64,000 bases of DNA from Frankiales bacterium (GCA_025965475.1 JAOPWV010000077.1:4313-68312), one strand, 5' to 3'. Counted from the stretch's first letter, positions 41,722-63,703 are shown. The notes: generated by a model from the letters alone, not told the origin. Program-made: numbers and translations.

Positions 41722-41785
41722 GAGGCTGGAGCGTAGTGGGGCCATGGCAGTCAGTCGCCGCGCCGCGCGTCTTACCATTCCCGGC

Positions 41786-44522: not shown

Positions 44523-45230
44523 CTAGGGCTTGGGCGCCAGTCGCCGCAGCCCCGCCACGTCCACTCCTGCCGTGAGCGTGACCCGCTCGGCGGCCGCCAC
44601 GGCGGCAGCGTCCCCCTCGCGCAGCAGCACCAGGCTTGCGCCGGCGGCCAGTGCCGTCAGCAGCACCGACGCGCCCAGGGGGTCGCCCGGGACCAGGCTG
44701 GTGAGCAGCCGGTCGCCGCGACCGACCCCGTCCAGGAGGCGGACCGGCCGGCCGCCGGCCTCGACCACCGGAGCGGCCGGCCGCGGGCCGCCGTAGTGGT
44801 CGGCGTACGACGGAACCTCGCGGGCGTAGTCGAGCACCGAGCCCGGCAGGTCGCCCGCCGGGGCGCCCAGAGGGTGACCGGACAACGCGAGGACGTCATC
44901 CACCCCGGCGTCCAGTGCCGCCTCGGCGTCCTGCGCGGCGACGAAGGCCGCGCCGCAGCCGGCCAGGTCACCGGCGTCCTCGACCAGGACGACGGTCGCG
45001 CCCGTGGCCGCGCCGGCGAGCAGCAGCGCCACCGTCTGCCAGTGCAGCGGCAGGAGCAGGCCGACCCGGTCCGGGCGCCCGAGCGCGTCGACGAGCAGGT
45101 TGGCGGACTTGGCCACCCAGTTGGCGGTGGTCGCGCCGGACAGCTCGACCCGCCCCGGCCCGTCGTACAGGGTCAGGAGGGGTTGCGCGGGATCCCGGTC
45201 ACCGGCCAGTCCGCCGGTGAGCTCGGTCAG
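44523..45230 (-). CDS. TIGR03089-family protein (acyl-adenylate-enzyme-like remnant fold, conserved next to LCP)
   Basis: LLTLYDGPGRVELSGATTANWVAKSANLL is typical of the family. There is no ATG/GTG/TTG near the expected N-terminus. The best candidate start is the CTG at 45230, overlapping the LCP stop (CTGA). Confidence 0.7.
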   Translation of the reverse strand: MTELTGGLAGDRDPAQPLLTLYDGPGRVELSGATTANWVAKSANLLVDALGRPDRVGLLLPLHWQTVALLLAGAATGATVVLVEDAGDLAGCGAAFVAAQDAEAALDAGVDDVLALSGHPLGAPAGDLPGSVLDYAREVPSYADHYGGPRPAAPVVEAGGRPVRLLDGVGRGDRLLTSLVPGDPLGASVLLTALAAGASLVLLREGDAAAVAAAERVTLTAGVDVAGLRRLAPKP

Positions 45231-46894
45231 GGTGCGCAGGGGTCGTCCAGGGCGGTGCTGACCTTCGGCGGCGTGCTCGCGGTCGCGCTGGAGGTGCCGG
45301 TCGGGGTGCCGCTCAGGGTGACCGCCTGCGCCGCGGTGTACGACGTGCCGAGCACGACCTGCAGGACGTTGCCCAGCGCCGGGTCGGACTGCAGGGCGGC
45401 GCCCGGGATGGCGGCGGCCAGGGTACGTGCCGAGTCGGCCTTGGTCGGGCCGTACGACACGATCGTGCCCGTGGCGCCGGACCCGCGGGTCTGCGGGTCG
45501 CCGACCACCTGGAAGCCGAGCTGGCCCAGCTCGCCGGCCGCGCGGCGGCCCAGGCCGTTGATGCCGGAGCCGTTGTAGACCTGCACGCGGATCGCGGAGG
45601 GCGGCACGATCAGGCCGGCGGGCGCGGTGCTGGCGGACGCCTTCGGGGCCGGCGTGCCCGGCGCGATGTCCTGGCGGATCTCGGAGAACAGTTCGTCGTT
45701 CTTGGTTTTGTCGAGCAGCACGACCGAGCCGAGGCCAGGCAGGTAGCCGTCGATGGTGCTGACGTGGACCGTCGTGAAGATGACGTTGCCGGCGCCGAGG
45801 TTGCGCATCCGCAGGGCCAGCGAGCGCATGGTGCCGAAGTCGAGGTTCTCGTCGGCTTGCAGCGACGCCGTGGCGACGTTGAGGAACCCGTTGAGCTTGA
45901 ACGGGTTGGCCAGCGTGCCGGCCGAGAGCACCTTGCGCACCATGGCGCCGATGAACTGCTGCTGCCGTTTGATCCGGTCGATGTCGCCGTTGGCCAGGCC
46001 CTTGCGCTGCCGGACGAAGGACAGGGCGACCGCGCCGCTGATGTGGTGCTTGCCCGCGGTGAGGTTGATGCCCGAGTCGTGCTCGACCGCCGGCTTGGAC
46101 AGACACACGTCGACGCCGCCGAGCTTGTCGACCATCGACTGGAAGCCCTGGAAGTCCACCTGCAGGTAGTGGTCGATCTGTACGCCGGTGAACTGCTGCA
46201 CGGTGGCGATGAGCAGTTTGGGGCCGCCCGTGGCGAACGCGGAGTTGATCCGGTCCTGGCGGGCGTTGTGGACCTTCCCGGTCGTGGGGTCGGTGAACTC
46301 AGGGATGTCCACGATCGAGTCGCGCGGGAAGCTGACCAGCTGCACCTTGTCGCTGTTTCCGCCGTACAGGTGCGCGAGGATCACGGTGTCCGAACGCTGC
46401 CCGGTCACGAACGTGGCGCCGGAGCCCTGCACGCCCTGGCCGGCCTTGAGGTTGCCGCGGCTGTCGGAGCCGACGATGAGGAAGTTCTGCGCGTTGTTCG
46501 GCGCGGCGGCAACCGGCTGCTGGCCCGGCAGGGTGCCGAGGATGCCCTTGAGCTTGGTGATGTTGCCCTCGTAGTGGCCGACGAGGAAGTACCCGGTGAC
46601 CGCGACGGCCAGCACGCTGATCGAGGCCAGCACGGCGATCCACGAGAGCACCCGGGCGGCGCGGCGGTGGCGCTTGCCCTTGGGACCCTCCGGGGCGACC
46701 TGCCGCGTCGGAGGCCGCAGCGGCGGACGGGGCGACGCGTGACGCCCGGGCGTGCCCGGCGGGCGCGGCGGGACGCCGCCGCGACCACGCGGGTCGAGGT
46801 GGGGCGGCAGTGGTCGGGGCGACGGCGGGTACGGCTCGGAGGACGGCTGCGACGGGTTGCTTCCGCCCGCCCTCCAGTCCCGTGGGTCGCTCAC
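45227..46894 (-). CDS. LytR-CpsA-Psr (LCP) family glycopolymer ligase with C-terminal LytR_C domain
   Basis: 555 aa. Pro-rich cytoplasmic N-terminus, one TM helix, NFLIVGSDSR...RSDTVILAHL...SFPRDS core, and a C-terminal LytR_C-like region. Confidence 0.9.
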   Translation of the reverse strand: MSDPRDWRAGGSNPSQPSSEPYPPSPRPLPPHLDPRGRGGVPPRPPGTPGRHASPRPPLRPPTRQVAPEGPKGKRHRRAARVLSWIAVLASISVLAVAVTGYFLVGHYEGNITKLKGILGTLPGQQPVAAAPNNAQNFLIVGSDSRGNLKAGQGVQGSGATFVTGQRSDTVILAHLYGGNSDKVQLVSFPRDSIVDIPEFTDPTTGKVHNARQDRINSAFATGGPKLLIATVQQFTGVQIDHYLQVDFQGFQSMVDKLGGVDVCLSKPAVEHDSGINLTAGKHHISGAVALSFVRQRKGLANGDIDRIKRQQQFIGAMVRKVLSAGTLANPFKLNGFLNVATASLQADENLDFGTMRSLALRMRNLGAGNVIFTTVHVSTIDGYLPGLGSVVLLDKTKNDELFSEIRQDIAPGTPAPKASASTAPAGLIVPPSAIRVQVYNGSGINGLGRRAAGELGQLGFQVVGDPQTRGSGATGTIVSYGPTKADSARTLAAAIPGAALQSDPALGNVLQVVLGTSYTAAQAVTLSGTPTGTSSATASTPPKVSTALDDPCAP

Positions 46895-47033
46895 CGGCAG
46901 TGCTCTCCTCGTGTCGGGGTCTCATCCCGAGGACGTGCGATAGCGCGGCAGGGTTCCCTCAGCGCGCACCCCAGGTTACCGGGGGTGACCTGAGGTGGCG
47001 CTGTGCCGCGCCAGGGCGGCTAACCTGCGGCGC

Positions 47034-48098
47034 ATGAAGGCACTGGTCCTGTCCGGTGGCGCCGGCACGCGTCTGCGCCCCATCACCCACACGAGCGCCA
47101 AGCAGCTGGTCCCGGTCGCGAACAAGCCGGTGCTGTTCTACGGCCTCGAGGCGATCCGCGATGCGGGGGTCACGGACGTCGGCATCATCGTCGGCGACAC
47201 GGCCGCCGAGATCGAGGCCGCGGTCGGCGACGGCAGCGCGCTCGGGATCCGGGTGACCTACATCCGCCAGGAGGCACCCCTCGGGCTGGCGCACTGCGTG
47301 CTCATCGCCCGTGACTTCCTCGGCGACGACGACTTCGTCATGTACCTCGGCGACAACTTCATCATCGGCGGCATCACCGAGCTCGTCGCGGAGTTCCAGG
47401 CCGAGCGGTACGACGCCCAGATCCTGCTGACCCGCGTCGACAACCCGTCGCAGTTCGGCGTCGCGGAGCTCGGGCCCGACGGGCAGGTCTGCACGCTCGT
47501 CGAGAAGCCCCAGGAGCCCAAGAGCGACCTGGCCCTGGTCGGCGTCTACATGTTCACGCCGGTGATCCACGACGCCGTCATGGCGATCAAGCCGTCCGGG
47601 CGGGGCGAGCTGGAGATCACCGACGCCATCCAGTGGCTGATCGACGAGGGCAGGACCGTCAGCCCGCACCTGGTCACCGGCTACTGGAAGGACACCGGCC
47701 GGCTCGAGGACATGCTCGAGTGCAACCGCAAGGTGCTCGAGTCGCTCGAGCCGTCGGTGCGCGGGACGGTCGACGCCGAGTCCCGGGTGATCGGCCGGGT
47801 GGTCGTCGAGGAGGGCGCCGTCATCGAGCGGTCCACGGTCCGGGGGCCGGCGATCATCGGCCGCGACACGGTCATCCGCGACACGTACGTCGGCCCGTTC
47901 ACGTCGATCTACTTCGGGTGCACCCTCGAGGACACCGAGATCGAGCACTCCATCGTGCTGGAGCAGTCGACGATCCGGGGCGTCCGCCGGATCGAGGACT
48001 CGCTGATCGGCAAGGAGGTGGAGGTCGCCCCGTCGTCCGCCCGCCCGCGGGCGCACCGGCTCATGCTCGGCGACCACTCCAAGGTCTCCATCGCCTGA
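47034..48098 (+). CDS. rmlA: Glucose-1-phosphate thymidylyltransferase (long form)
   Basis: MKALVLSGGAGTRLRPITHTSAKQLVPVANKP, with a left-handed beta-helix C-terminal half. 354 aa from the ATG at 47034. Confidence 0.9.
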   Translation: MKALVLSGGAGTRLRPITHTSAKQLVPVANKPVLFYGLEAIRDAGVTDVGIIVGDTAAEIEAAVGDGSALGIRVTYIRQEAPLGLAHCVLIARDFLGDDDFVMYLGDNFIIGGITELVAEFQAERYDAQILLTRVDNPSQFGVAELGPDGQVCTLVEKPQEPKSDLALVGVYMFTPVIHDAVMAIKPSGRGELEITDAIQWLIDEGRTVSPHLVTGYWKDTGRLEDMLECNRKVLESLEPSVRGTVDAESRVIGRVVVEEGAVIERSTVRGPAIIGRDTVIRDTYVGPFTSIYFGCTLEDTEIEHSIVLEQSTIRGVRRIEDSLIGKEVEVAPSSARPRAHRLMLGDHSKVSIA

Positions 48099-48128
48099 GC
48101 GCACTGCGATCTCTGGGATACTGAGCCG

Positions 48129-49115
48129 ATGCGTGTCTTCGTGACCGGCGGCGCCGGCTTCATCGGGTCCCACTTCGTGCGTCAGCTGCTGACTGACGCC
48201 TACCCGGCGTACGCGGGCGCCGAGGTGACCGTCTACGACAAGCTCACCTATGCCGGGAACCTCGAGAACCTCGTGCCGGTGGCCGACTCGCCGCGGTACC
48301 GGTTCGTGCAGGGCGACATCGTCGACGGTGCCCAGCTCGACAAGGAGCTGCCCGGTCACGACCTGGTCGTCAACTTCGCCGCCGAGACCCACGTCGACCG
48401 GTCCATCACCGGCGCGCAGGACTTCGTCGTCACCAACGTGCTCGGCGCGCAGACCCTGTTCGACGCCTGCCTGCGCAACGGGATCCCGCGGGTCGTGCAG
48501 ATCGGCACCGACGAGGTCTACGGCTCGATCTCCGCGGGCTCGTGGACCGAGAACGAGCCGCTGCTGCCGAACTCGCCGTACTCCGCCGCGAAGGCGGGCG
48601 CGGAGCTGCTCGCCCGCGCGTACGCCGTGACGTACGGGCTCAACATCTCGACGACGCGCTGCTCCAACAACTACGGGCCGTACCACTTCCCGGAGAAGGT
48701 CATCCCGCTGTTCGTGACCAACCTCATCGACGGCAAGAAGGTGCCGCTGTACGGCGAGGGGCTCAACGTCCGCGACTGGCTGCACGTCGACGACCACTGC
48801 CGCGGCATCGCACTGGTCGCCGAGAAGGGCGACAAGGGCGAGAGCTACAACATCGGCGGTGGCCGCGAGCTGTCCAACCGGGAGCTCACCGAGGCGCTGC
48901 TCGCGGCCTTCGGGGTCGGCTGGGAGATGGTCGAGCACGTCGAGGACCGCAAGGGCCACGACCTGCGCTACTCGGTGGACCACTCGAAGCTCGGCGCCAT
49001 GGGCTACGCGCCGCAGCACACCTTCGAGGACGGGCTGGCGGAGACGATCGCCTGGTTCCGCGCCAACGAGGCCTGGTGGCGGCCGCTCAAGGAGAAGGCG
49101 GCGCTCGGCTCGTGA
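48129..49115 (+). CDS. rmlB: dTDP-glucose 4,6-dehydratase
   Basis: 328 aa. VTGGAGFIGSHF, TDEVYG, YSAAKAG (YxxxK). Confidence 0.95.
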   Translation: MRVFVTGGAGFIGSHFVRQLLTDAYPAYAGAEVTVYDKLTYAGNLENLVPVADSPRYRFVQGDIVDGAQLDKELPGHDLVVNFAAETHVDRSITGAQDFVVTNVLGAQTLFDACLRNGIPRVVQIGTDEVYGSISAGSWTENEPLLPNSPYSAAKAGAELLARAYAVTYGLNISTTRCSNNYGPYHFPEKVIPLFVTNLIDGKKVPLYGEGLNVRDWLHVDDHCRGIALVAEKGDKGESYNIGGGRELSNRELTEALLAAFGVGWEMVEHVEDRKGHDLRYSVDHSKLGAMGYAPQHTFEDGLAETIAWFRANEAWWRPLKEKAALGS

Positions 49116-50017
49116 GCCTCGCCCTCCTCGTCACCGGGGCCGGCGGACAGCTGGGCAGCGACCTGCTCGAGGCGGTCCGGACCTCGCGGGACGTCTTCGC
49201 CCGGGGGCTCCTGCGCAAGGACCTCGAGCTCACCGACCCGGCAGCCGTGCAGGACATGCTCCTGGGCTGGGAGCGGATCGTGCGCGCCGACAACCCCGAG
49301 CACCGGCTCGTCGTCATCAACGCGGCGGCCTACACGGCCGTCGACGCGGCGGAGACCGACGAGGACATGGCGTACGCCGTGAACGCCACCGCACCCGCGT
49401 TGCTCGCGGCGTCCTGCGCCCGCATCGGCGCCCGGCTCGTGCACGTCAGCACCGACTACGTGTTCCCCGGTGACGCCGCCCGGCCGTACGAGGTCGGCGA
49501 CCCGACCGGCCCGAAGAGCGCCTACGGGCGCACCAAGCTGGCCGGTGAGCTGGCGGTCCGCGAGATCCTGCCCGACGCGTCCCACGTGGTGCGCACGGCG
49601 TGGGTGTACGGCGCCACCGGGCAGAACTTCGTCAAGACGATGGTCCGGCTGGAGAAGGAACGCGAGACGGTCAGCGTGGTCGACGACCAGCGCGGCTCGC
49701 CCACCTGGTCACGGGACCTGGCGAACGGGCTGCTCGCCCTTGCCGGCTCGGACGCACCGGCCGGGACCTACCACGCGACGAACGCGGGCGACACCACCTG
49801 GCACGGGTTCACCCGCGCCGTCTTCGAGGAGCTGGGCGCCGACCCGGGGCGGGTGCTCGCCACGACGACCGACGCGTTCCCGCGGCCCGCGCCCCGCCCG
49901 GCATACAGCGTGCTGTCGCCGAGCGCCTGGGAGCAGGCCGGTCTGCCGCCGCTGCAGGGTTGGCGGGAGGCCCTCGCCGAGGCGTTCAGCACCTCAGGGA
50001 CGGCGCTGCGCGGCTGA
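49112..50017 (+). CDS. rmlD: dTDP-4-dehydrorhamnose reductase
   Basis: The GTG overlaps the rmlB stop. LLVTGAGGQLG, STDYVFPG, YGRTKLAGE. Confidence 0.88.
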   Translation: MSLALLVTGAGGQLGSDLLEAVRTSRDVFARGLLRKDLELTDPAAVQDMLLGWERIVRADNPEHRLVVINAAAYTAVDAAETDEDMAYAVNATAPALLAASCARIGARLVHVSTDYVFPGDAARPYEVGDPTGPKSAYGRTKLAGELAVREILPDASHVVRTAWVYGATGQNFVKTMVRLEKERETVSVVDDQRGSPTWSRDLANGLLALAGSDAPAGTYHATNAGDTTWHGFTRAVFEELGADPGRVLATTTDAFPRPAPRPAYSVLSPSAWEQAGLPPLQGWREALAEAFSTSGTALRG

Positions 50018-50029
50018 CGCCGCCGGACG

Positions 50030-51208
50030 TCAGCGCCGGCGGCCGAGCAGGCGGCGCAGCCCGCGCAGCAGCCGCATCGCCAGGTGGGCACGCTCGTCGA
50101 GGGTGCGCACCAGCACCGGCCGCAGCGCGACCCGCCGGTCGAGGAGCGCGGCCTTCTCGTCCGTGGTGCGGTGCAGGTCGGCCAGCAGGTGGCTGTTGTG
50201 CATCCGGAGCGTCTCGAGCTCCTGGGTCAGCTGCTGCAGGACGGTGAGCGGGTAGTACCGGCCCTCCGCGGCCGCGGCCGCCTGCTCGCGGGCCTCCTCC
50301 TCGCGCGCCCACGCGGCGAGGGTGTCCTGCTCGTCGAGGACGGCCTTCATCGGGTGACCCCAGAAGAAGGCGAACAGCGTCCGGTCGGGGTCCTCCGTCG
50401 TCCACGCCTCGTCGGCGGCGAGGACCTGCTCGACGACGGCGTCCCGCTCCGGGCCCGGGGTCCCGTGCACCGCGCTGTTGAACGACAGGACCGGGTAGGC
50501 GAGGGCGCCCCCGATCGGGTTGAGCTCCTCGAGCCGGAAGTACCGCCGGACCGTGTCGAGGATCAGCTCGGAGTGGATCGCCTCGGTCGGGTCGCCGGCC
50601 AGCATGGTCGGCAGGTGCGGGTAGTTCGGGGCGGAGCGGAACGCCTCCGGCAGCTGCTCGACGAGTTCCTGCGCGGCCTGCCACTGCGCATACCCGTACT
50701 GGTTGCGGTGCGGCCCGACGTAGTCGACGGAGGCGAAGACGCCGTCCGCCGGCAGCACCTCGCAGACCCGCCTGAGCACCTTGTCGAGGTAGGCGATGTG
50801 GTGCGCGGCGGCGAAGTTGACGACGAGGTCGTAGCCGTCCTCGGGCAGGTCGGCGGTGTTGATGTCGCGGGCGTAGTAGCGCGCGGGCAGGCCCGCGACG
50901 GCCGCCGCCTTGCGCGCCTGGTCGAGCAGCTCGTCGGAGATGTCGGTGCCGACCGCCTCCTCGACGATCCCCGCCTCGAGCAGCTGACGCTCCACCCAGC
51001 CGTTGCCGCAGTTCAGGAACAGCGCCTTGCGGAACGTCCGCCCGCCGGTGACGTCCTTGAGGTGGGTGTACCAGTCGGTGTCCGGCTTGCCGGTGGCGCG
51101 ACGTTCGATGTACGCCGCCACCTGCGGGAGGTCGTTCCAGTAGCCGCCGCCGTAGTACACCGACGAGTCCTGGGCGACGGTGTAGCTGCGGGTGTCCGGT
51201 TCGGCCAT
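50030..51208 (-). CDS. Class I SAM-dependent methyltransferase with ~100-aa C-terminal coiled-coil and basic amphipathic terminus (WbdD-like candidate)
   Basis: 392 aa. The FLNCGNGWVER...GTDIS...DLVVNF Rossmann methyltransferase core is followed by heptad-like EEEAREQAAAAAE...LQQLTQELETLRMHNSHLLADLHRTTDEKAALLDRR and a terminal LLRGLRRLLGRRR. Confidence 0.8.
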   Translation of the reverse strand: MAEPDTRSYTVAQDSSVYYGGGYWNDLPQVAAYIERRATGKPDTDWYTHLKDVTGGRTFRKALFLNCGNGWVERQLLEAGIVEEAVGTDISDELLDQARKAAAVAGLPARYYARDINTADLPEDGYDLVVNFAAAHHIAYLDKVLRRVCEVLPADGVFASVDYVGPHRNQYGYAQWQAAQELVEQLPEAFRSAPNYPHLPTMLAGDPTEAIHSELILDTVRRYFRLEELNPIGGALAYPVLSFNSAVHGTPGPERDAVVEQVLAADEAWTTEDPDRTLFAFFWGHPMKAVLDEQDTLAAWAREEEAREQAAAAAEGRYYPLTVLQQLTQELETLRMHNSHLLADLHRTTDEKAALLDRRVALRPVLVRTLDERAHLAMRLLRGLRRLLGRRR

Positions 51209-52502: not shown

Positions 52503-52952
52503 ATGCCGTTGTGGGGGGAGTACGCGCCGAGCAGCGAGCAGTGGGTGCGCGACGAGGTGGAGCACTACGAGCGCACCGACGGGACCGCGTGGGGCGACCG
52601 GCCGGTCGTCGTCCTCACCAGCCGTGGTGCCGTCTCCGGCAAGCTCCGCAAGACGCCGTTGATGCGCGTCGAGCACAAGGGGATCTACGCCGCTGTGGCC
52701 TCGATGGCGGGCGCGGGCAGCCACCCGGCCTGGTACCACAACGTGCTCGCCGAGCCGCGGGTCGAGCTGCAGGACGGCCCGCGCCGGCAGGACATGATCG
52801 CCCGGGAGCTGTCCGGCCCGGAGCGGGCGGCCTGGTGGTCGCGCGCCTGCACGGTCTTCCCGTCGTACGTGGACTACCAGAGCAGGACCCGGCGCCGGAT
52901 CCCGGTGTTTCTGCTGGAGCCGCTGCCTCAGGAGCCCAGCGCGAGCCGGTAG
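52503..52952 (+). CDS. Deazaflavin (F420)-dependent nitroreductase family oxidoreductase (Ddn/DUF385-like)
   Basis: 149 aa. LTSRGAVSGKLRKTPLM...GSHPAWYHNVLAEPRVELQ...IPVFLLEP. Confidence 0.85.
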   Translation: MPLWGEYAPSSEQWVRDEVEHYERTDGTAWGDRPVVVLTSRGAVSGKLRKTPLMRVEHKGIYAAVASMAGAGSHPAWYHNVLAEPRVELQDGPRRQDMIARELSGPERAAWWSRACTVFPSYVDYQSRTRRRIPVFLLEPLPQEPSASR

Positions 52953-53992
52953 GCCTGCCGGGTCAGCTCGGCGCACCGCTCCCAGGTGAACTGTGCGGCA
53001 TGCCGGCGCCGGGCCCGCGGGTCGCCCGGGTCGCCCAGCACCCGTTCCAGGGCGGCGGCGAAGGCGGCGGGGGAGCCCTGCTCGGCGTACGACGTGACCG
53101 TGCCGCCGACCTCGCGCAGCACCGGCAGGTCGCTTGCGACCACGGGCGTGCCGGCCGCCAGCGCCTCGACGACCGGGATGCCGAATCCCTCGTCGCGGCT
53201 GGGCAGGACGAGCGCCGAGGCGCCCGCGACGACGGCGCGCAGGCGCTCGTCGTCCAGGAACCCGGGGGTGACGCAACCGGAGACGTCCACCTGCTCGCCC
53301 CAGCCCGTGGGCCCCACCAGGACGAGCGGAGGCGCGTCGGGGAGGAGCCGGTGCGCGGCGAGCAGCGTGCCCAGGTCCTTGCGTGGCTCGAGGGTCCCGA
53401 CGAAGACGAGGTACGACGGGGGCAGCCCGAGCGACGCGCGCAGGGCCTCGTCGGGCGGTGCGGCGGTGTACCACTCGGGGTCCACGCCGAGCGGCGTCAC
53501 GACGATCGGGGCGCGGACGTCGTACTCCTCGCGCACCTGCTCGGCGACCGCGGTGCTCGGCGTGATCACGACCGACGCGCGGCGCAGCGACCGGGGGACG
53601 AGCGTGCGGTAGCGGGCGCTGGCACTGCTGACGGTCTCGGGCATCCGCAGGTACGACAGGTCGTGGATGGTCACGACCCCGGCGGCGCGGCGCAGCGGCG
53701 GGAGCACGAAGTTGGTGGCGTGGAAGACGTCCAGCTTGCCGGCGAGCAGCTCGACGGGCGGCCACTCGACCCGGGCCCAGGCCTCCTGGAGGCCGCGGGC
53801 CGGCGCCGGTCGGGCGGCCACCCGGACGCCTTCGGGTACGACGGCCGGCAGCGCCTCGCGGCCGCGGAAGGTGAACGCCGTGGCCACGAGCTCGTCGTCG
53901 TGTGCGGCCAGCGCCCGCAGCAGCGCGAGGGTGTAGCGGCCGACCCCGGTCCTGTTGCCCAGCAGCGGGGTGGCGTCGAGCCCGATCCGCAT
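52928..53992 (-). CDS. GT4-family (GT-B) glycosyltransferase
   Basis: 354 aa from MRIGLDATPLLGNRTGVGRY, ending with PSRDEGFGIPVVEALAAGTPVV (E-x7-E). Confidence 0.88.
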   Translation of the reverse strand: MRIGLDATPLLGNRTGVGRYTLALLRALAAHDDELVATAFTFRGREALPAVVPEGVRVAARPAPARGLQEAWARVEWPPVELLAGKLDVFHATNFVLPPLRRAAGVVTIHDLSYLRMPETVSSASARYRTLVPRSLRRASVVITPSTAVAEQVREEYDVRAPIVVTPLGVDPEWYTAAPPDEALRASLGLPPSYLVFVGTLEPRKDLGTLLAAHRLLPDAPPLVLVGPTGWGEQVDVSGCVTPGFLDDERLRAVVAGASALVLPSRDEGFGIPVVEALAAGTPVVASDLPVLREVGGTVTSYAEQGSPAAFAAALERVLGDPGDPRARRRHAAQFTWERCAELTRQAYRLALGS

Positions 53993-54002
53993 GGCCGCCA
54001 CG

Positions 54003-55559
54003 TCAGTCGAGCAGCCGGTGCTTGTCGACGATGTCGTGCCACCGGTCGGCGAAGGCGTCCTCGCTGTACTCCTGCGCGCGGTGGGTCGCTGCGGCGGACA
54101 GGCGCGCGCGCAGGTGCTCGTCCTCGGCGACCTCCGCGGTGCGGGCCAGCAGCTGGGCCGGCGTCGTCCACCGGAAACCGTCGACGTTCTCGCGCACGAT
54201 CTCCTTCTGCCCGGCTCGGTCGATGACGACGGGCACGCAGCCACCGGCCATCGCCTCGACGGTCGTCATGCCGAAGTGCTCGTTGGCCCAGGGCGTCTTG
54301 TGCTCGTCCTCGCTGTAGCCGGTGGCGGACCAGAACACCGACGACGTCGACAGCAGCTGCTCGACGAGCTTGCGCGGGACGTTGGCGATCACCTCGACCG
54401 GCAGGCCGGCGCCGGCGGCCCGCACCTGGTCGACGTAGTTCTGCTGTGAGTCCTCCATGCCGCCGAGGACGTACATCCGCCAGTCCCGCGGGATGACCCC
54501 GGACCGGATGCCCTCGGCGAAGAACTGCACCATCTCGAGCTGGCGCTTGGCGTGGCCGAGGCCGGGCGAGAAGAACCGGCCCACGGTGATGACGGCCTTC
54601 TCGCGCTCCGGCGCGGGATGCAGCCGCTGGACCTGGATGGGCGGGAACAGCAGTTCGGCCTCGGTCTTCCACAGCTGCTGGATGTAGCCCCGGGTGTATT
54701 CGCTGTTGGCCATCACCGTGTCGTAGCCCTCGAGGAACGACAGGTTCCGCGGGTCGCGCATGAGCCACGGGAAGCGCTGCGCCACCCGGGCCCGCGGGCC
54801 GTAGTGGCCGCCCTCCAGGCGCATCCGGCTCACCGCGACGCCCAGCCGGCGCCGGTCGTCGCCGCCCGGGGAGAACGTCTCGGTCCGGAAGTGCAGCTCG
54901 GTGCCCCGGACGGAGGCCGGGAAGTCCAGATGGTGCGTGGTGAACTGCGAGCCCACCTCGATCTCGGCGAGCACGTGGCCCTGCTCGTCGCCGATGGTCA
55001 GCACCCGGGGCTCCGGCATGCCGGGGCCGCCGAGCTCCATCCGGATGCGCCGGGCCTTCGCGTCGGGCGACAGCGTCAGGACCGCGTCCTCCGTGGTCCA
55101 GGCCCACTGCCGCAGCCGACCGCCCTCGGGGGGGAACCAGCCGACCCCGTAGTCGACCCCGCCGGTGTGCGCGCGCAGCAGCGGCCCGAGGTTCCGGGTG
55201 GCGGCTCGCCGCCAGGGCGACAGGTCGGCGTCGAACGGCGTCGGGAAGTAGCAGAGGTACGCCGCGTGCCTGGCCCTCGGCCGCAGCCGGCTGGTGTACG
55301 TCCCGTTGACGAACAGGTCGTACTCCTCGGACACCGCGGCCAGGTGCAGGTCGCCGCGGTCCGGCTCGACACGCAGGGTGCACCGCGACAGGTCGAGGCC
55401 GAGGTGGTCGGCGAGCTCGTCCTTGTCGACCTCGGTGTGGCCGATGAGGTCGACCTGGACGCCGTCCTGGGACAGCACTTCGGCGATCATCCCGGAGTGG
55501 CGTTCGCCGCCACCCTGGCTGTGCCAGAAGCGGTCGTAGATCGCGGCCCGCTTGGTCAT
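54003..55559 (-). CDS. Glycosyltransferase with GT4-type C-terminal half and uncharacterised N-terminal ~250 aa
   Basis: 518 aa from MTKRAAIYDRFWHSQGGGERH. The C-terminal EHFGMTTVEAMAGGCVPVV motif is present. The ATG overlaps the upstream GT2 stop (ATGA). Confidence 0.85.
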   Translation of the reverse strand: MTKRAAIYDRFWHSQGGGERHSGMIAEVLSQDGVQVDLIGHTEVDKDELADHLGLDLSRCTLRVEPDRGDLHLAAVSEEYDLFVNGTYTSRLRPRARHAAYLCYFPTPFDADLSPWRRAATRNLGPLLRAHTGGVDYGVGWFPPEGGRLRQWAWTTEDAVLTLSPDAKARRIRMELGGPGMPEPRVLTIGDEQGHVLAEIEVGSQFTTHHLDFPASVRGTELHFRTETFSPGGDDRRRLGVAVSRMRLEGGHYGPRARVAQRFPWLMRDPRNLSFLEGYDTVMANSEYTRGYIQQLWKTEAELLFPPIQVQRLHPAPEREKAVITVGRFFSPGLGHAKRQLEMVQFFAEGIRSGVIPRDWRMYVLGGMEDSQQNYVDQVRAAGAGLPVEVIANVPRKLVEQLLSTSSVFWSATGYSEDEHKTPWANEHFGMTTVEAMAGGCVPVVIDRAGQKEIVRENVDGFRWTTPAQLLARTAEVAEDEHLRARLSAAATHRAQEYSEDAFADRWHDIVDKHRLLD

Positions 55560-56902
55560 CGGGTCGCCACCAGCCACTCCTCGAGCCGCCGGCGCGACAC
55601 GACGGACTGCCGTGCGAGGGCCCGGCGCTTGAGGATCATGACGGGTAAGAGTCGCAGGAACGACGCGAGCACCTTCAACCGCATGAGGGTCGGCCGGACG
55701 GCGGGCCGGCTGCGTGCCTTGAGGGACTGCCGCACGCTGCGCAGCGCGATGGACCCCGTCGTCAGCGGGTAGCGCAGGACCTCCCTGACCGCGAACCGCA
55801 GGCTCGCGTCCTTCACCAGCATCAGCAGGCGGTTGCGGTCGGTGTGGAAGACGAACGTCGGGGACCATTCGACGCTGCTGGCCGAGTGGATGTGCCGGAC
55901 GACGGCCTTGGGCTCGTAGCGGATCGACCAGCCCGCCGCGCGCAGCCGCCACGACAGGTCGGTGTCCTCGTAGTACAGGAAGAAGTCGTCGTCGAACCAG
56001 TCAGCCTGGCGGCCGGCCTCGGTGCGGAAAGCGACCGCGCAGCCGCACAGTGCGAAGACCTCGGTGGGCTCGTCGTACTGACCGGTGTCGACGTCCTGGT
56101 AGCCGCGGTCGGCGCCGTAGCCGGCGGTCAGGACGATGCTGCCGACGTTGTTGACGACGTCCACGACCGGTACGCCGGCCGGCACCTCGACGGTGTGCTC
56201 CGCCGGTACTGCCGTGACCGGCAGGGTGGCCGCGCCGCCGTCCCAGGACAGGGTGGCGGTCTTCTCGCGCTCGCCGGCCCAGCGGACCGAGATGCGGACC
56301 GGCCCGGCTGCGTCCGGCAGCGGGACCAGCAGCTCGCCCTCCGGACGTGCCCAGCGGAACCGGCCCTCGCCGCTGCCCTCCGGTCCCCAGGTGAGCCGCT
56401 CCATGAGAACCCGCTCGGTGACGTCCTCGTCGCCGACACGGATCCGGAACAACTGCAGCCCGAGGTCGCGGGGGTCGTGCGGGCCGGGGGAGAAGCCGGT
56501 GGTCTGCAGGCGCAGCCGCAGGAACCGCGGCTGGAAGACCACCTTGCTCGTCACGGCGGCGAGCCGCTCGTTGCCCGGCTCCTCCAGCGGGGCGAGCAGT
56601 TTCTCCAGCCAGTCGGGCTCGGGGGTCGCGTCGTTGTTGAGCAGAACGGCATACGGCGTCGTGATCTGACGCAGCGCGGTGTTGTTGCCGCCGGCGAAGC
56701 CGAGGTTCTCGCTGTTGCGCAGGATCCGGACGTCCGGGTACTCGCGTTCGAGCAGGGCCACCGACCCGTCCGCCGAGGCGTTGTCGACGACCCACACGTC
56801 GAACGGCGCACCGGTCTGCTGGCGGGCCAGCGCGTCCAGGCAGGGCCGAAGCAGGCGCTCGCCGTTCCAGTTGACGATGACGACGGTGGCGCGCGGCGTC
56901 AT
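55556..56902 (-). CDS. GT2-family glycosyltransferase (rhamnosyltransferase-like) with internal insertion
   Basis: 448 aa. VVIVNWNGERLLRPCLDAL...VVDNASADGS...LLNNDA, with an insert of about 150 aa before the CGCAVAFR...ED(T)DLSWR region. Confidence 0.88.
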   Translation of the reverse strand: MTPRATVVIVNWNGERLLRPCLDALARQQTGAPFDVWVVDNASADGSVALLEREYPDVRILRNSENLGFAGGNNTALRQITTPYAVLLNNDATPEPDWLEKLLAPLEEPGNERLAAVTSKVVFQPRFLRLRLQTTGFSPGPHDPRDLGLQLFRIRVGDEDVTERVLMERLTWGPEGSGEGRFRWARPEGELLVPLPDAAGPVRISVRWAGEREKTATLSWDGGAATLPVTAVPAEHTVEVPAGVPVVDVVNNVGSIVLTAGYGADRGYQDVDTGQYDEPTEVFALCGCAVAFRTEAGRQADWFDDDFFLYYEDTDLSWRLRAAGWSIRYEPKAVVRHIHSASSVEWSPTFVFHTDRNRLLMLVKDASLRFAVREVLRYPLTTGSIALRSVRQSLKARSRPAVRPTLMRLKVLASFLRLLPVMILKRRALARQSVVSRRRLEEWLVATR

Positions 56903-58098
56903 GCGGCCCCGCTCCGGGGCAGGACCGCGCTCGTGGCCGGTACGGCGAGGATGCCCGGCAGGTCGCCGCCGCGGCCCTTCACGGCCTCGTCGAACCGGGC
57001 CACCGCAAGCGGGTAGCCGGTCTCCGGGTCCTCGACCTGGACGGCGAGGATGAACGAGCCGTTCAGGGCCGGGGCGTGCTCGACCACGAACTCGACCGTG
57101 TAACGGCCGGGCACGGCCGGCACGCCCTGCCCGGGTGGGGTCCGCATCGAGAAGATCGGGATGTCACCGGCGCCGACGAGCACGACGATCACGTCGCCGG
57201 CGAACACGTCGGCGGCAGCGAGCACCTCGACCTCGACGCAGACGTGCAGCGGCTGCCCGGCGAGCACCTCCGCCGTACGCGGGCCGCCAGCGGTCAGCGA
57301 CGGGATCGCGGCGTGCACGTACGCGCCGCGCGGCTCGGGGGCGGGCGGCTCGCCGACCGGCCGGTCGGTGCCGAGGATCTTGCGCAGCGTGCCGACGGCG
57401 TACGACGGGTCGCCGTCGTACTGCACGCGGCCGTGGTCCACGACGATGCCGCGCGTGCACAGCTGCTCGACGAGGTCGAGCGCGTGCGTGACGAACAGGA
57501 TGGTCTTGCCGGCCTGCTGGAACTCGGTGATCTTCGCGAGGCACTTGCGGGCGAAGGCCTCGTCCCCGACCGCGAGGACCTCGTCGACGAGCAGGACGTC
57601 CGGGTCGACGTGCACGGCGATGGAGAAGGCCAGCTTGACGTACTCACCGGACGAGTAGTGCTTCACCGGGTCGTCGATGCGCTCGCCCTGCTCGGAGAAC
57701 TCGACGATCGAGTCGAGGAGCCCGTCGACCTCCTTGCGCGACAGCCCCAGCAGGGCCGCGTTGAGGTAGACGTTCTCCCGGCCGGTCAGCTCGCCGTTGA
57801 AGCCGGCGCCGAGTTCGAGCAGGGAGGCGATCCGGCCCTCCACCTGCACCTCGCCGGAGGTCGCCCGCAGGATGCCGGCGAGCACCTTGAGCAGCGTGGA
57901 CTTGCCGGCGCCGTTGGGCCCGATGAGCCCGACGGTCTCGCCCTGCCCCACCGTGATGTCGACGTCGCGCAGCGCCCAGAACTCGCCCTCCGTCACGGCC
58001 TTGCGCCGCACGATGCGCTCCTTGAGCGACGTCGCCCGCTGCTTGTGCGTGACGAAGCGCTTGGAGACGCCCCGCGCGCTGATGACCGGCTGCGTCAC
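56899..58098 (-). CDS. Polysaccharide ABC exporter ATP-binding protein (Wzt/TagH-like) with ~150-aa C-terminal extra domain
   Basis: The GTG at 58098 overlaps the permease stop. Walker A GPNGAGKST, signature YSSGEYVKL, Walker B LLVDEVLAVGD. A beta-rich C-terminal domain follows (residues ~250-399). Confidence 0.9.
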   Translation of the reverse strand: MTQPVISARGVSKRFVTHKQRATSLKERIVRRKAVTEGEFWALRDVDITVGQGETVGLIGPNGAGKSTLLKVLAGILRATSGEVQVEGRIASLLELGAGFNGELTGRENVYLNAALLGLSRKEVDGLLDSIVEFSEQGERIDDPVKHYSSGEYVKLAFSIAVHVDPDVLLVDEVLAVGDEAFARKCLAKITEFQQAGKTILFVTHALDLVEQLCTRGIVVDHGRVQYDGDPSYAVGTLRKILGTDRPVGEPPAPEPRGAYVHAAIPSLTAGGPRTAEVLAGQPLHVCVEVEVLAAADVFAGDVIVVLVGAGDIPIFSMRTPPGQGVPAVPGRYTVEFVVEHAPALNGSFILAVQVEDPETGYPLAVARFDEAVKGRGGDLPGILAVPATSAVLPRSGAA

Positions 58099-59006
58099 AG
58101 CTCTTCCGCGAAGTCCGCCTGCATCCGGGTGAACACCCGGCGCGCGAACAGGAAGAGCAGCCCGGCGATGACGAACCCGATCGCCAGGTTGCGCAGGTAG
58201 AAGGCGTAGCCGGGATCGGCCAGGGCGTGGCCGATGGCGTGGGGTGGCTTGGTGTTGACGTAGCCGTCCTTGACGAAGATGGCCCGCTGGAAGGTCGTCA
58301 CGACCGTGGCCATCGGGTTGAGGAAGTACGCCCAGAACAGGTGGTACTGGTCGAGCTTGTCCTTCACCAGTGTCGAGGTGTAGAGGATCGGGTTGAGCCA
58401 GAACCAGACCAGCAGGGCGATCTCGACGGCGTGCGCGGTGTCGCGGTACCGGACGTTCAGCGCCGAGACCAGGTAGCTGAAGGCGGTCGAGAACAGCAGG
58501 AGCAGCGCCAGCGCCGGGACGATGAGCAGGAAGGCCGGGCTGAAGTCGTGCCGGAAGATCGTGGTGACGAGCAGCAGAACGACCAGCTGCAGGACGAAGT
58601 GCACGAGGGCATAGCCGACCGCCGACAGCGGCAGGACCTGGAGCGGGAAGCGCACCTTCTTCACCAGACCGGCGTTGCCGACGACGGTGCCGGACGCGGT
58701 CGACACCGCGGCGGAGAAGGCCGTCCAGGGCAGCAGGCCGCACATCAGGAAGATGGCGAAACCCGGGACGCCGTTGTTGAGCACCACGCCGAAGATCAGG
58801 TAGTAGATGCCCATGAGCAGCAGCGGATTGGCCAGGCTCCACGCGAAGCCGAGCACGGACCCCTGGTACTTGACCTTCAGGTCCTTGCGCACGAGCTGAC
58901 TGAGCAGCTCCCAGCTGACCCGGCTCTGCGCCCGGGCGCGGCGGCGCGCCAGTTCGCTCCGGTCGCCGAGCGGTGGGACGGCCGCGCCAGGAGCCTCAGT
59001 GGCCAC
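58095..59006 (-). CDS. ABC-2 type polysaccharide exporter permease (Wzm/TagG-like)
   Basis: 303 aa. VRKDLKVKYQGSVLGFAWSLANPLL is the hallmark start of Wzm/TagG. 6 TM helices. Confidence 0.9.
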   Translation of the reverse strand: MATEAPGAAVPPLGDRSELARRRARAQSRVSWELLSQLVRKDLKVKYQGSVLGFAWSLANPLLLMGIYYLIFGVVLNNGVPGFAIFLMCGLLPWTAFSAAVSTASGTVVGNAGLVKKVRFPLQVLPLSAVGYALVHFVLQLVVLLLVTTIFRHDFSPAFLLIVPALALLLLFSTAFSYLVSALNVRYRDTAHAVEIALLVWFWLNPILYTSTLVKDKLDQYHLFWAYFLNPMATVVTTFQRAIFVKDGYVNTKPPHAIGHALADPGYAFYLRNLAIGFVIAGLLFLFARRVFTRMQADFAEEL

Positions 59007-59149
59007 GCGGGTCAGCCTCCAGGGCGTCTATCCGGGGTGCCGTCCGGCAGGACAGCCGGAGCGGGCAGCAGGCGCACGAGCCGGTCGCCGGGCTTGCCGT
59101 GGAGCATAACCAGGCGTTCGCGCCGCGGCCGGTCGCTACCCTTTGCGCC

Positions 59150-62943: not shown

Positions 62944-63578
62944 TGCCAGCTGTCGGCGCGGCCGACGACCTTCGCGGGTACGCCCGCGACGACCGCGCCG
63001 GCCGGGACGTCCTTCGTGACGACCGCGCCCGCGGCGACGACAGCGCCGTCGCCGATCGTGACGCCCTTGAGGATGATCGCGCGGGTGCCGACCCAGACCC
63101 GGTCGCCGATCACCACCGGCGCGGCGGACGGCTGCTCGACGCCGTCGACGGTGAGGGCGTGGAAGTCGTTGTCGAGCACCTGGACGTCCCAGCTGAACGT
63201 GCAGGCGGCACCGATCGTCACGGCCTGGGCGCAGAGGATCTTCGTGCCCAGCCCGTTGACGTTGGTCGCATGACCGATCTGCAGCCGGCCGCCGTCGACC
63301 ACGACGCGGATGCCGCGCTGCAGGGAGACGACGCCCTCGCAGTGGAAGGTGGCCCCCTCCCGCACCCGGACGACCGAGGTGTCGCCTTCGCTGGTGAGGC
63401 CGAACGGCCCGAGGCCGATGCGCAGCGCACCGCCGGGGGACACGGTGATGCGGTCGGCGCCGTCCAGCACGGTGTCGGAGCCGATCCAGATCGCGCGCCT
63501 GGCCAGTACCCGATGGCGGAGCACGCCGCCGTAGAAGGCGCGGGCGGAGGTCTCCTTCGCCCCGCGCAGGGACGTCAT
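62940..63578 (-). CDS. Hexapeptide-repeat (LbH) O-acyltransferase
   Basis: 212 aa from MTSLRGAK. The C-terminus [49 protein letters not shown] is a classic hexapeptide acetyltransferase sequence. Confidence 0.85.
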
Positions 63579-63703
63579 GGCGCGGCGGTAGCCACGGAAC
63601 TCGGCAGCGGGCACGGGTAGCAGGCTAGGGCGCGGCCCGCCGGGCCGGGCGTCCGGCGCGGCTAGGATCGGCGTACCGCCTGCCAGCCCGGGAGTCCCCT
63701 GTC

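What the first reader, a model, noticed from the sequence alone, without database searches (positions are those of the whole stretch)
56899..59006. Wzm/Wzt exporter whose ATPase carries an extra ~150-aa C-terminal domain (possible glycan-cap reader)
After a complete ABC ATPase (Walker A, signature and Walker B all visible), Wzt continues for about 150 residues. This tail is rich in beta-type Val/Gly alternation (...LHVCVEVEVLAAADVFAGDVIVVLVGAGDIPIFSMRTPP...YTVEFVVEHAPALNGSFILAVQVEDPETGYP...).

In Gram-negative O-antigen systems such C-terminal Wzt domains are carbohydrate-binding modules that recognise the chain-terminating residue. Simple TagH or RfbB-type exporters of Gram-positive rhamnopolysaccharides lack them.

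The gene is translationally coupled on both sides, with GTGA at 58095-58098 and a 4-nt overlap at 56899-56902.
Basis: partly seen in the sequence, partly recalled or inferred. Interest (0 to 1): 0.6.

Follow-up and report, generated by a model that had tools for sequence, protein, structure and literature searches.

The report
Wzt exporter ATPase with divergent glycan-binding tail
The ATPase of a wall-polysaccharide ABC exporter in an uncultured Frankiales-like actinobacterium ends in a real, conserved beta-sandwich domain whose closest structural matches are the known cap-reading domains of O-antigen exporters. This is a divergent, so far unannotated example of a known device, not a new kind of system.

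Summary
On the minus strand, wzm (59006..58095) and wzt (58098..56899) overlap by GTGA. The wzt stop overlaps the ATG of a GT2 gene (ATGA). Wzt is 399 aa: a complete Wzt/TagH-type ATPase (aa 1-243), a Pro-rich linker, and a 156-aa tail.

The tail has no Pfam or NCBIfam hit, even at E 10. It is nevertheless kept at 150-182 aa in the 120 orthologues listed, where named from Frankiales/Mycobacteriales MAGs. AlphaFold models it as an all-beta domain (pLDDT 84). Its best PDB matches are the Aquifex Wzt carbohydrate-binding domain (TM about 0.6) and the E. coli O9a one. Three distant family members hit Pfam Wzt_C below threshold. I read the tail as a divergent Wzt-type carbohydrate-binding domain.

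The surroundings fit an L-rhamnose wall glycan: rmlA/B/D, three glycosyltransferases and an LCP ligase. There is also a 392-aa methyltransferase with long C-terminal helices, a plausible chain terminator. Cap reading itself is inferred, not shown.

Gram-positive precedent exists: the Geobacillus S-layer rhamnan has a 2-O-methyl cap. I rate this a new member of a known kind, of modest interest.

The parts
58095..59006 (-). wzm: ABC-2 permease, 303 aa from the longest ORF. The true start may lie slightly further in.
   Evidence: Pfam ABC2_membrane E 3e-16. Below-cut-off NCBIfam match to the galactan Wzm/RfbD permease, E 4e-22. Stop overlaps the wzt start, GTGA. 52-83% identical homologue adjacent to wzt in 23 of the related loci.
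57370..58098 (-). wzt nucleotide-binding domain, aa 1-243. Walker A 60-68, signature YSSGE 148-152, Walker B 169-173, H-loop His205, C-terminal hinge-helix equivalent 231-243.
   Evidence: Pfam ABC_tran E 1.6e-19. phmmer to Aquifex Wzt 6amx/7k2t/8dku E 5e-64 to 3e-63 over query 11-242, and to TagH/TarH. Motif positions.
57325..57369 (-). Pro-rich linker TDRPVGEPPAPEPRG, aa 244-258.
   Evidence: Low model confidence (pLDDT 57 for model residues 1-10, 79 for 11-20) and no secondary structure before model residue 16. Poorly conserved in orthologues after the conserved TD.P start.
56917..57324 (-). All-beta C-terminal domain, aa 259-394: a divergent Wzt-type carbohydrate-binding domain. Nine predicted strands. 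Conserved motif VGAGDIPIF at aa 308-316 (57151-57177).
   Evidence: AlphaFold2 pLDDT 84.4, pTM 0.79. Foldseek top hits are Wzt CBDs 6o14, 8dky, 7k2t, 8dl0, 2r5o. Conserved in the 120 listed orthologues. Sub-threshold Wzt_C hits in 3 of 29 family members.
56899..56916 (-). Last five residues (RSGAA) and the TGA stop, which overlaps the ATG of the GT2 gene (ATGA 56899-56902).
   Evidence: Model residues 154-156 have pLDDT below 50.
55556..56902 (-). GT2 glycosyltransferase, 448 aa, with a beta-rich insert of about 150 aa between the two halves of the catalytic domain. Translationally coupled to wzt.
   Evidence: Pfam Glycos_transf_2 at aa 6-112 and Glyco_trans_2_3 at 275-339. 54-76% identical homologue directly after wzt in 23 of the related loci, and further downstream in L002.
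54003..55559 (-). GT4-type glycosyltransferase, 518 aa. ATG overlaps the GT2 stop (ATGA).
   Evidence: Pfam Glycos_transf_1 at aa 327-502 of the 527-aa translation submitted. Start and overlap. Conserved synteny.
52928..53992 (-). GT4 glycosyltransferase, about 354 aa, last gene of the wzm-wzt-GT operon.
   Evidence: Pfam Glyco_transf_4 and Glycos_transf_1. Start. Homologues in 16 of the related loci.
50030..51208 (-). Candidate chain terminator: 392-aa class I SAM methyltransferase with a C-terminal helical extension and a basic amphipathic end (LAMRLLRGLRRLLGRRR).
   Evidence: Pfam Methyltransf_25/11/31 at aa 68-184. AlphaFold2 pLDDT 89 with core 59-286, then helices 294-313, 323-357 and 362-389. 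Top Foldseek hits are the sugar O-methyltransferases AtmM and RebM. Homologues within 10 kb of tail-bearing wzt in L001, L002 and L025.
46995..50017 (+). rmlA (long form), rmlB and rmlD: dTDP-L-rhamnose pathway genes. rmlC is not in the window.
   Evidence: NCBIfam rmlA_long 478 bits (cut-off 320) and dTDP_gluc_dehyt 410 bits (cut-off 365). rmlD 299 bits (cut-off 224).
45227..46894 (-). LCP (LytR-CpsA-Psr) glycopolymer-to-peptidoglycan ligase.
   Evidence: Pfam LytR_cpsA_psr E 1.5e-48 and LytR_C. NCBIfam LCP domain 154 bits (cut-off 62).

Best explanation
The wzm-wzt pair is a Wzm/Wzt-type ABC exporter for a polyprenol-linked, rhamnose-containing cell-wall polysaccharide of an uncultured Frankiales/Mycobacteriales-like actinobacterium.

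Wzt has three parts. Residues 1-243 form a standard Wzt/TagH ATPase that ends in the equivalent of the Aquifex hinge helix. Residues 244-258 are a Pro-rich linker. Residues 259-394 form a beta-sandwich that is a divergent homologue of the Wzt carbohydrate-binding domain.

By analogy with E. coli O8/O9a, K. pneumoniae O12 and Aquifex aeolicus, the domain most likely binds the modified non-reducing end of the finished glycan. The likeliest modification is an O-methylated sugar. That would let only terminated chains be exported, after which an LCP enzyme attaches them to peptidoglycan.

Shown: gene structure, ATPase family, conservation of the tail, its predicted fold and its best structural matches, and the gene content of the locus.

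Inferred: carbohydrate binding, the identity of the cap, coupling of termination to export, and dimerisation.
For: - ATPase family: E 5e-64 to 3e-63 to Aquifex Wzt, aligned up to residue 242, exactly where that protein's hinge helix ends and its linker and CBD begin (PMC9445017).
- Fold: confident all-beta model of the tail (pLDDT 84.4, pTM 0.79).
- Structural matches: the best PDB matches are Wzt CBDs from two organisms (6o14, 8dky, 7k2t, 8dl0, 2r5o; TM 0.52-0.65), ahead of generic Ig-like sandwiches.
- Sequence bridge: the tail profile finds P0029 at E 4.6e-8, and the P0029 tail hits Pfam Wzt_C at E 4.5e-5. Wzt_C is the family most often hit among 29 tails.
- Evolutionary pattern: the tail is retained in all 120 listed orthologues but evolves faster than the ATPase (49% against 82% mean identity). 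That is the pattern expected of a specificity domain.
- Locus content: rmlA/B/D, three glycosyltransferases coupled to wzt, and an LCP ligase.
- Candidate terminator: a methyltransferase carrying about 95 aa of long C-terminal helices and a basic amphipathic end. PMC11231755 describes this as the hallmark architecture of chain terminators.
- Related loci: 9 of those lacking that enzyme carry a different methyltransferase next to the glycosyltransferase block.
- Precedent: the Gram-positive Geobacillus L-rhamnan has a 2-O-methyl cap and overlapping wzm/wzt/wsaE genes (PMC2943079).
Against: - No Pfam Wzt_C hit for this protein at E up to 10, and no sequence match to any solved CBD, even with a 29-sequence profile.
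- The structural match is moderate: TM about 0.6, rmsd 4-5 A, 14-16% identity. RhoGDI and NPC2 beta-sandwiches follow closely.
- The fold was predicted from only four sequences.
- No cap chemistry is known for this glycan.
- The 392-aa methyltransferase lies about 5.7 kb from wzt, in a different transcription unit.
- Its helical tail is far shorter than the WbdD coiled coil.
- Its fold hits are generic class I methyltransferases, not WbdD.
- Its presence does not track tail similarity. In L002 the methyltransferase is 73% identical but the tail only 44%.
- L005 and L008 show no methyltransferase in the regions I scanned.
Confidence: 0.6

Rival explanations
1. The tail is a Wzt-CBD-like sandwich that binds the glycan backbone or the lipid-linked primer and merely helps recruit substrate. 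There is no obligatory cap and no coupling of termination to export. Methylation in the locus would decorate the repeat unit, not terminate the chain.
For: - No terminator can be assigned with confidence. The methyltransferase type differs between related loci (392-aa type or 297-aa type) and its presence does not follow tail similarity.
- The K. pneumoniae O1 system shows that terminal groups can be dispensable for export (PMC11231755).
Against: - In every terminated system that PMC11231755 reviews, a CBM on Wzt binds the terminal group. The characterised actinobacterial galactan Wzt is 273 aa, and no extra C-terminal domain is described for it (PMC13649706).
- The fast-evolving but always retained tail fits an epitope-specific reader.
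Confidence: 0.22
2. The tail is a regulatory or protein-interaction beta domain, like the C-terminal domains of MalK-type or TOBE-type ABC ATPases. It would dimerise the ATPase or dock the glycosyltransferase complex without binding carbohydrate.
For: - C-terminal beta domains with regulatory roles exist on other ABC ATPases (general knowledge).
- Generic Ig-like sandwiches such as RhoGDI and NPC2 score almost as well as Wzt CBDs.
- wzt is translationally coupled to three glycosyltransferase genes.
Against: - No MalK, TOBE or other transport-associated regulatory domain appears among the top 50 structural hits or in Pfam.
- The only family hit repeatedly by tails is Wzt_C.
Confidence: 0.13
3. 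The extension is an artefact: read-through or a frameshift fusion in GC-rich DNA, or a disordered tail with no function.
For: Long spurious ORFs are common at 72% G+C. No database domain is assigned to the tail.
Against: - Same frame and same length class in all 120 listed orthologues and 26 genome loci.
- Conserved motifs and a confident folded model.
- The stop codon is precisely coupled to the next gene.
Confidence: 0.02

Closest known systems
Aquifex aeolicus WzmWzt O-antigen exporter (PDB 7k2t, 8dl0; CBD 6o14, 8dky)
   Same: - Same ATPase family (E about 1e-63, aligned to the end of the hinge helix).
- Same architecture: ATPase, short linker, then a C-terminal beta domain of about 140 aa.
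- The CBD is the best structural match to the tail.
- Its glycan is rhamnose-rich with mannose and carries 3-O-methyl caps (PMC9445017). That is comparable to the rhamnose pathway plus methyltransferases found here.
   Different: - Only 14-16% identity in the tail, and no detectable sequence match.
- The binding-pocket residues (Trp362, His355, Val380 in Aquifex) could not be mapped.
- The host here is a monoderm actinobacterium, and the glycan probably goes to peptidoglycan through an LCP enzyme, not to lipid A-core.
E. coli O9a/O8 (= K. pneumoniae O3/O5) Wzt with WbdD terminator (CBD 2r5o)
   Same: - A C-terminal CBD on Wzt is structurally matched by the tail (E 3e-3, TM 0.54).
- The terminator is a methyltransferase followed by a helical ruler and a membrane-associated amphipathic helix (PMC11231755). 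The 392-aa methyltransferase here resembles that layout.
   Different: - No kinase module.
- The helical extension here is only about 95 aa.
- The methyltransferase is not a detectable WbdD relative.
- The polymer is probably rhamnose-based, not polymannose.
Geobacillus stearothermophilus NRS 2004/3a S-layer glycan system (Wzm/Wzt, WsaE)
   Same: - Gram-positive host.
- L-rhamnan built from dTDP-rhamnose.
- Chain ended by O-methylation, and Wzt predicted to bind the methylated end.
- wzm, wzt and the next transferase gene have overlapping stop and start codons (PMC2943079).
   Different: - There the methyltransferase is a domain of the polymerising rhamnosyltransferase WsaE, and the glycan is transferred to an S-layer protein.
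- Here the methyltransferase is a separate protein, and an LCP ligase points to attachment to peptidoglycan.
- No sequence comparison with the Geobacillus Wzt could be made with these tools.
Mycobacterium tuberculosis galactan exporter Wzm/Wzt (Rv3783/Rv3781; PDB 9qfx and related)
   Same: Actinobacterial lipid-linked wall-polysaccharide exporter. The ATPase matches at E 5e-42, and NCBIfam's galactan Wzt and Wzm models match below their cut-offs.
   Different: The mycobacterial Wzt has 273 residues and no extra C-terminal domain is described for it. Substrate recognition is assigned to Wzm and the ATPase helical domain (PMC13649706).

Membership tests
Wzm/Wzt (TagG/TagH) class of polysaccharide ABC exporters | ATPase with Walker A, signature, Walker B and H-loop, homologous to characterised Wzt/TagH | tested here: met
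   Motifs located. E 5e-64 to Aquifex Wzt and 2.6e-59 to TagH. The NCBIfam TagH and galactan Wzt equivalogs match but below their cut-offs, so this is not an equivalog of either.
Wzm/Wzt (TagG/TagH) class of polysaccharide ABC exporters | Adjacent ABC-2 type permease gene | tested here: met
   Pfam ABC2_membrane E 3e-16. The wzm stop overlaps the wzt start.
Wzm/Wzt (TagG/TagH) class of polysaccharide ABC exporters | Located in a glycan-biosynthesis locus | tested here: met
   Three glycosyltransferases, rmlA/B/D, LCP ligase, methyltransferase and acetyltransferase.
Wzt C-terminal carbohydrate-binding domain (Pfam PF14524, Wzt_C) | Sequence match to the Pfam model at or above its gathering score (30.4 bits) | tested here: not met
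   No hit for the window tail at E up to 10. None of the 120 listed orthologues has PF14524 precomputed. Only 3 of 29 family tails hit, all sub-threshold, the best at 23.9 bits and E 4.5e-5.
Wzt C-terminal carbohydrate-binding domain (Pfam PF14524, Wzt_C) | Fused to the C-terminus of the Wzt ATPase, after the hinge helix and a short linker | tested here: met
   The alignment with full-length Aquifex Wzt ends at query 242 / chain 237. A Pro-rich linker and then the folded domain follow.
Wzt C-terminal carbohydrate-binding domain (Pfam PF14524, Wzt_C) | Jelly-roll/beta-sandwich fold superimposable on solved CBDs | tested here: met
Wzt C-terminal carbohydrate-binding domain (Pfam PF14524, Wzt_C) | Dimer stabilised by exchange of the C-terminal beta-strands | not testable with these tools
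   Only monomer prediction is offered. A conserved C-terminal strand (LPGILAVP, model residues 146-151) preceded by a lower-confidence loop is compatible with exchange but proves nothing.
Wzt C-terminal carbohydrate-binding domain (Pfam PF14524, Wzt_C) | Binds the non-reducing terminal modification and is required for export | not testable with these tools
   Needs binding and export assays. Pocket residues could not be mapped because model coordinates and superpositions are not exposed.
Polymerase-terminator (chain-termination-coupled) ABC pathway | A terminating enzyme with a coiled-coil molecular ruler encoded in the locus | tested here: inconclusive
   The 392-aa methyltransferase has predicted helices at 294-313, 323-357 and 362-389 and a basic amphipathic end. 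No coiled-coil predictor was available. It resembles generic class I or sugar O-methyltransferases, not WbdD. Homologues lie within 10 kb of wzt in only 3 related loci, and 9 others carry a different methyltransferase without such helices.
Bacillus subtilis TagH-type long extension (membrane-spanning C-terminal region) | Transmembrane segment and extracytoplasmic domain after the ATPase | tested here: not met
   The tail is 156 aa and is modelled as a soluble all-beta domain with no helix. The match to the 549-position TagH model covers only profile positions 10-227. The feature itself is stated from general knowledge.

The most novel reading that the evidence does not exclude
An uncultured Frankiales/Mycobacteriales lineage uses a sequence-divergent subfamily of Wzt carbohydrate-binding domains, invisible to Pfam Wzt_C, to impose cap-dependent quality control and chain-length control on an LCP-attached wall rhamnan. 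That would be the first termination-coupled export of a peptidoglycan-linked actinobacterial polysaccharide. Related loci swap the methyltransferase type and insert extra transferases while the tail diverges. This would make the lineage a natural series for studying how cap and reader co-evolve.
Probability: 0.3. Interest if true: 0.5.

Novelty: new member of a known kind. Interest (0 to 1): 0.3.

Why it matters
**Annotation.** The 120 orthologues listed are labelled only as "ABC-2 type transport system ATP-binding protein" with PF00005. About 40% of each protein is a conserved domain with no assigned family. Adding these tails to the Wzt_C seed alignment would extend the family's reach into Actinomycetota.

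**Biology.** A reader domain on the exporter predicts that this wall glycan has a defined terminal cap and a regulated chain length. For actinobacteria, the one characterised model reviewed here, the mycobacterial galactan exporter, has a 273-aa Wzt for which no such domain is described. The organisms are uncultured, so testing needs heterologous expression.

**Limits.** The principle, a CBD on Wzt that reads a terminator, has been established since 2005-2007. It is already predicted for a Gram-positive S-layer rhamnan and is described as widespread. A specialist would not be surprised.

Tried and rejected
- **Direct family searches of the tail.** Pfam and NCBIfam gave nothing, even at E 10.
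- **Sequence searches against PDB.** I tried a 4-sequence profile, a 29-sequence profile, and the most Wzt_C-like relative (P0029). All returned only noise and no Wzt CBD.
- **Word-indexed homologue search with the tail alone.** It returned only 3 fragments. That under-reported the family, because the full-length query then listed 120 orthologues. I therefore rejected the first impression that the tail is nearly unique.
- **Exhaustive profile search.** It gave only 44 representatives at 50% clustering. The family is real but narrow.
- **Genome scan with the 29-sequence alignment.** An 8-sequence alignment worked.
- **WbdD-like fold for the 392-aa methyltransferase.** Rejected. Top hits are generic class I or sugar O-methyltransferases.
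- **Tail divergence tracking methyltransferase type.** Not supported.
- **A second copy of the tail domain inside the inserts of the GT2 or GT4 proteins.** Rejected. The tail HMM hits only Wzt in the six-frame translation of the window.
- **Mann et al. 2019 (Glycobiology 29:822).** This survey of CBMs on ABC transporters is not held in the library. Its taxonomic coverage could not be checked.


Full report
**1. What is in the sequence**

The window is 70-75% G+C throughout. On the minus strand there is a chain of five tightly packed genes:
- wzm, 59006..58095
- wzt, 58098..56899
- a GT2 glycosyltransferase, 56902..55556
- a GT4-type transferase of 518 aa, 55559..54003
- a second GT4, 53992..52928

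The first three junctions are 4-nt overlaps: GTGA, ATGA and ATGA. The last junction is a 10-nt gap.

The 647-aa ORF listed mechanically for wzt includes out-of-frame read-through of wzm. The real product starts at the GTG at 58098 and is 399 aa. More distant full-length relatives start at the same aligned position.

**2. The ATPase part**

The motifs are in place:
- Walker A GPNGAGKST, aa 60-68
- signature YSSGE, aa 148-152
- Walker B LLVDE, aa 169-173
- H-loop His205 (my own count)

The best sequence matches among solved structures are the Aquifex aeolicus O-antigen Wzt (E 5e-64 to 3e-63) and the TagH/TarH teichoic-acid ATPases. The alignment to full-length Aquifex Wzt stops at query residue 242, chain residue 237. 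In that protein the hinge helix is residues 226-240, and the linker to the carbohydrate-binding domain is 241-249 (PMC9445017).

NCBIfam's TagH and galactan Wzt equivalog models match but stay far below their cut-offs. This is therefore a Wzt/TagH-class ATPase, not an orthologue of a named one. Wzm is an ABC-2 permease.

**3. The tail is real**

Residues 244-399 have no Pfam or NCBIfam match at E up to 1 or up to 10.

A word-indexed search with the tail alone found only three fragments. This turned out to be a sensitivity limit. The full-length protein returns 120 listed orthologues, 61-99% identical and mostly about 400 aa. Those that carry a source name come from Frankiales, Mycobacteriales or unclassified Actinomycetota MAGs. 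None carries PF14524.

In an alignment of these orthologues:
- the tail is always present, at 150-182 aa
- the ATPase averages 82% identity to the window protein, the tail only 49%
- the motif (V/M)GAGDIP(I/V)(F/W) is conserved, as are several Gly and Pro positions

An exhaustive profile search of 1.84 billion cluster representatives found only 44 at E up to 1e-3. A pattern scan of 185,579 species genomes found 26 loci, every one a MAG. The domain family is narrow and restricted to uncultured actinobacteria.

**4. What the tail is**

AlphaFold2 on a four-sequence alignment gives a confident all-beta domain of nine strands, with mean pLDDT 84.4 and pTM 0.79. A flexible Pro-rich linker precedes it.

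Foldseek against 350,542 PDB chains ranks these first:
- the isolated Aquifex Wzt carbohydrate-binding domain, apo and bound to 3-O-methyl-mannose (6o14, 8dky; E 7e-4, TM 0.58-0.65)
- full-length Aquifex WzmWzt (7k2t, 8dl0, 8dne)
- the E. coli O9a Wzt C-terminal domain (2r5o; E 3e-3, TM 0.54)

Generic Ig-like sandwiches (RhoGDI, NPC2) follow closely. Taken alone, the structural evidence is therefore moderate.

Two things raise it. The matching domains occupy the same position in the same protein family. There is also a transitive sequence link. The tail profile detects P0029 at E 4.6e-8, and the P0029 tail hits Pfam Wzt_C at E 4.5e-5 over profile positions 10-110 of 143. P0032 hits at E 0.029 over positions 7-142. 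Among 29 diverse tails, Wzt_C is the family hit most often, by 3 members.

I conclude that the tail is a divergent homologue of the Wzt carbohydrate-binding domain, lying outside the current reach of the Pfam model. No transmembrane helix or MalK/TOBE-like domain is indicated.

**5. Context and likely mechanism**

The neighbourhood encodes:
- rmlA (long form), rmlB and rmlD, all above NCBIfam cut-offs
- an LCP glycopolymer ligase
- a 392-aa SAM methyltransferase
- a hexapeptide acetyltransferase and two large polytopic membrane proteins with a weak GT-C-type (PMT_2) signal

The block acetyltransferase / two membrane proteins <> wzm-wzt-GT2-GT4-...-GT4 is conserved across the related loci. This points to a rhamnose-containing polymer built on a lipid carrier in the cytoplasm, exported by Wzm/Wzt and attached to peptidoglycan.

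In the characterised systems, a Wzt CBD binds a terminal methyl, phosphomethyl or Kdo cap. Only terminated chains are exported, and the terminator carries a coiled-coil ruler (PMC11231755, PMC9445017).

The 392-aa methyltransferase is modelled at pLDDT 89. It has a class I core (aa 59-286) followed by helices 294-313, 323-357 and 362-389, and it ends in LAMRLLRGLRRLLGRRR. This resembles a small version of the WbdD layout. Its best fold matches are the sugar O-methyltransferases AtmM and RebM, but these are generic class I hits.

Homologues sit within 10 kb of tail-bearing wzt in L001, L002 and L025. Matching contig lengths suggest co-location on three further contigs; this is an inference. Nine other loci instead carry a different 297-aa methyltransferase directly after the last GT4. 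Eight loci carry an inserted 308-318-aa protein of unknown function, and extra GT2 pieces were seen in the inserts I scanned.

Methylation is thus a recurrent feature of these loci, which fits a methyl cap. The pairing is not clean, however. L002 has the closest 392-aa methyltransferase (73%) but a tail only 44% identical. The conserved acetyltransferase is an alternative source of a terminal group.

**6. Comparison with what is known**

- The architecture and likely mechanism match the Wzt CBD systems of E. coli O8/O9a, K. pneumoniae O12 and Aquifex.
- The closest biological parallel is Gram-positive. The Geobacillus stearothermophilus S-layer poly-L-rhamnan is ended by 2-O-methylation, its Wzt is predicted to bind the methylated end, and wzm, wzt and wsaE have overlapping codons (PMC2943079).
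- The termination strategy is described as widespread across bacteria and glycan classes (PMC11231755, citing Mann et al. 2019, which I could not read).
- The characterised actinobacterial exporter, for mycobacterial galactan, has a 273-residue Wzt with no such domain described (PMC13649706).

What is new is limited. This is a sequence-divergent, unannotated subfamily in an uncultured lineage, probably serving a peptidoglycan-linked wall glycan.

**7. Verdict**

I rate it a new member of a known kind, with interest 0.3.

Noticed in passing
window 55556-56902 (-): The GT2 glycosyltransferase coupled to wzt has its catalytic domain split. Pfam matches aa 6-112 and 275-339, separated by a beta-rich insert of about 150 aa with no family match. 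The whole protein is 54-76% identical in 24 of the related loci. The insert is not related to the Wzt tail.
   Followed up: partly
window 54003-55559 (-): The 518-aa GT4-type transferase has about 320 N-terminal residues without any Pfam hit. These include a beta-rich stretch (…RRLGVAVSRMRLEG…) where a normal GT4 N-domain would be much shorter. This may be another inserted module.
   Followed up: no
window 50030-51208 (-): A 392-aa class I methyltransferase with three long C-terminal helices and a basic amphipathic end. Its family is large, with 861 proteins at E up to 1e-10. Most members are 370-445 aa, and the C-terminal region varies in length. One member is labelled as an O-antigen biosynthesis protein.
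   Followed up: partly
window 58973-61240 (+) and 61240-62943 (+): Two large polytopic membrane proteins, transcribed divergently from wzm, show only weak PMT_2 (GT-C) and TgpA_N signals and no NCBIfam match. They are conserved next to wzm in most related loci. The longest ORF of the first overlaps the wzm start by 34 nt, so its true start is probably further downstream.
   Followed up: partly
window 46995-50017 (+): rmlA (long form), rmlB and rmlD form an operon in which the rmlB stop overlaps the rmlD start (GTGA). rmlC was not found in the window. My first GC3-based gene screen missed rmlD because its stop-to-stop frame runs on from within rmlB.
   Followed up: yes
window 57643-57657 (-), Wzt aa 148-152: The ABC signature reads YSSGE in 118 of 121 aligned sequences of this clade. 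More distant tail-bearing relatives read YSSGM. The consequence is unknown.
   Followed up: partly
L004, L006, L009, L012, L013, L014, L020, L022, L029 (e.g. L014:19089-19979): Related loci that lack the 392-aa methyltransferase carry a different 297-aa methyltransferase with an N-terminal CxxC…CxxC motif, directly after the last GT4. Eight loci (L001, L005, L008, L012, L013, L014, L020, L022) have a conserved 308-318-aa protein of unknown function inserted between the two GT4 genes, and extra GT2 pieces lie in the inserts scanned (L005, L022). The window has none of these.
   Followed up: partly
window 62940-63827 (-): A hexapeptide-repeat O-acetyltransferase (WbbJ/WcaF-like) is conserved near the exporter in most related loci at 57-82% identity. 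It could decorate the glycan or supply an alternative terminal group.
   Followed up: no
window 21853-44509: The region upstream of the glycan locus is ordinary metabolism. It encodes acyl-CoA carboxylase subunits, an HMG-CoA-lyase-like protein, an acyl-CoA dehydrogenase, a thioesterase, an adenylate cyclase and a UDP-glucose dehydrogenase (40387-41862, minus strand).
   Followed up: partly
P0022, P0043 (public protein calls): Two database proteins that matched the tail profile are chimeric or frame-shifted gene calls. Each joins a tail fragment to a stretch with a methyltransferase motif (VLELxCGRG). This suggests that a methyltransferase gene directly follows wzt in those more distant genomes.
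   Followed up: no
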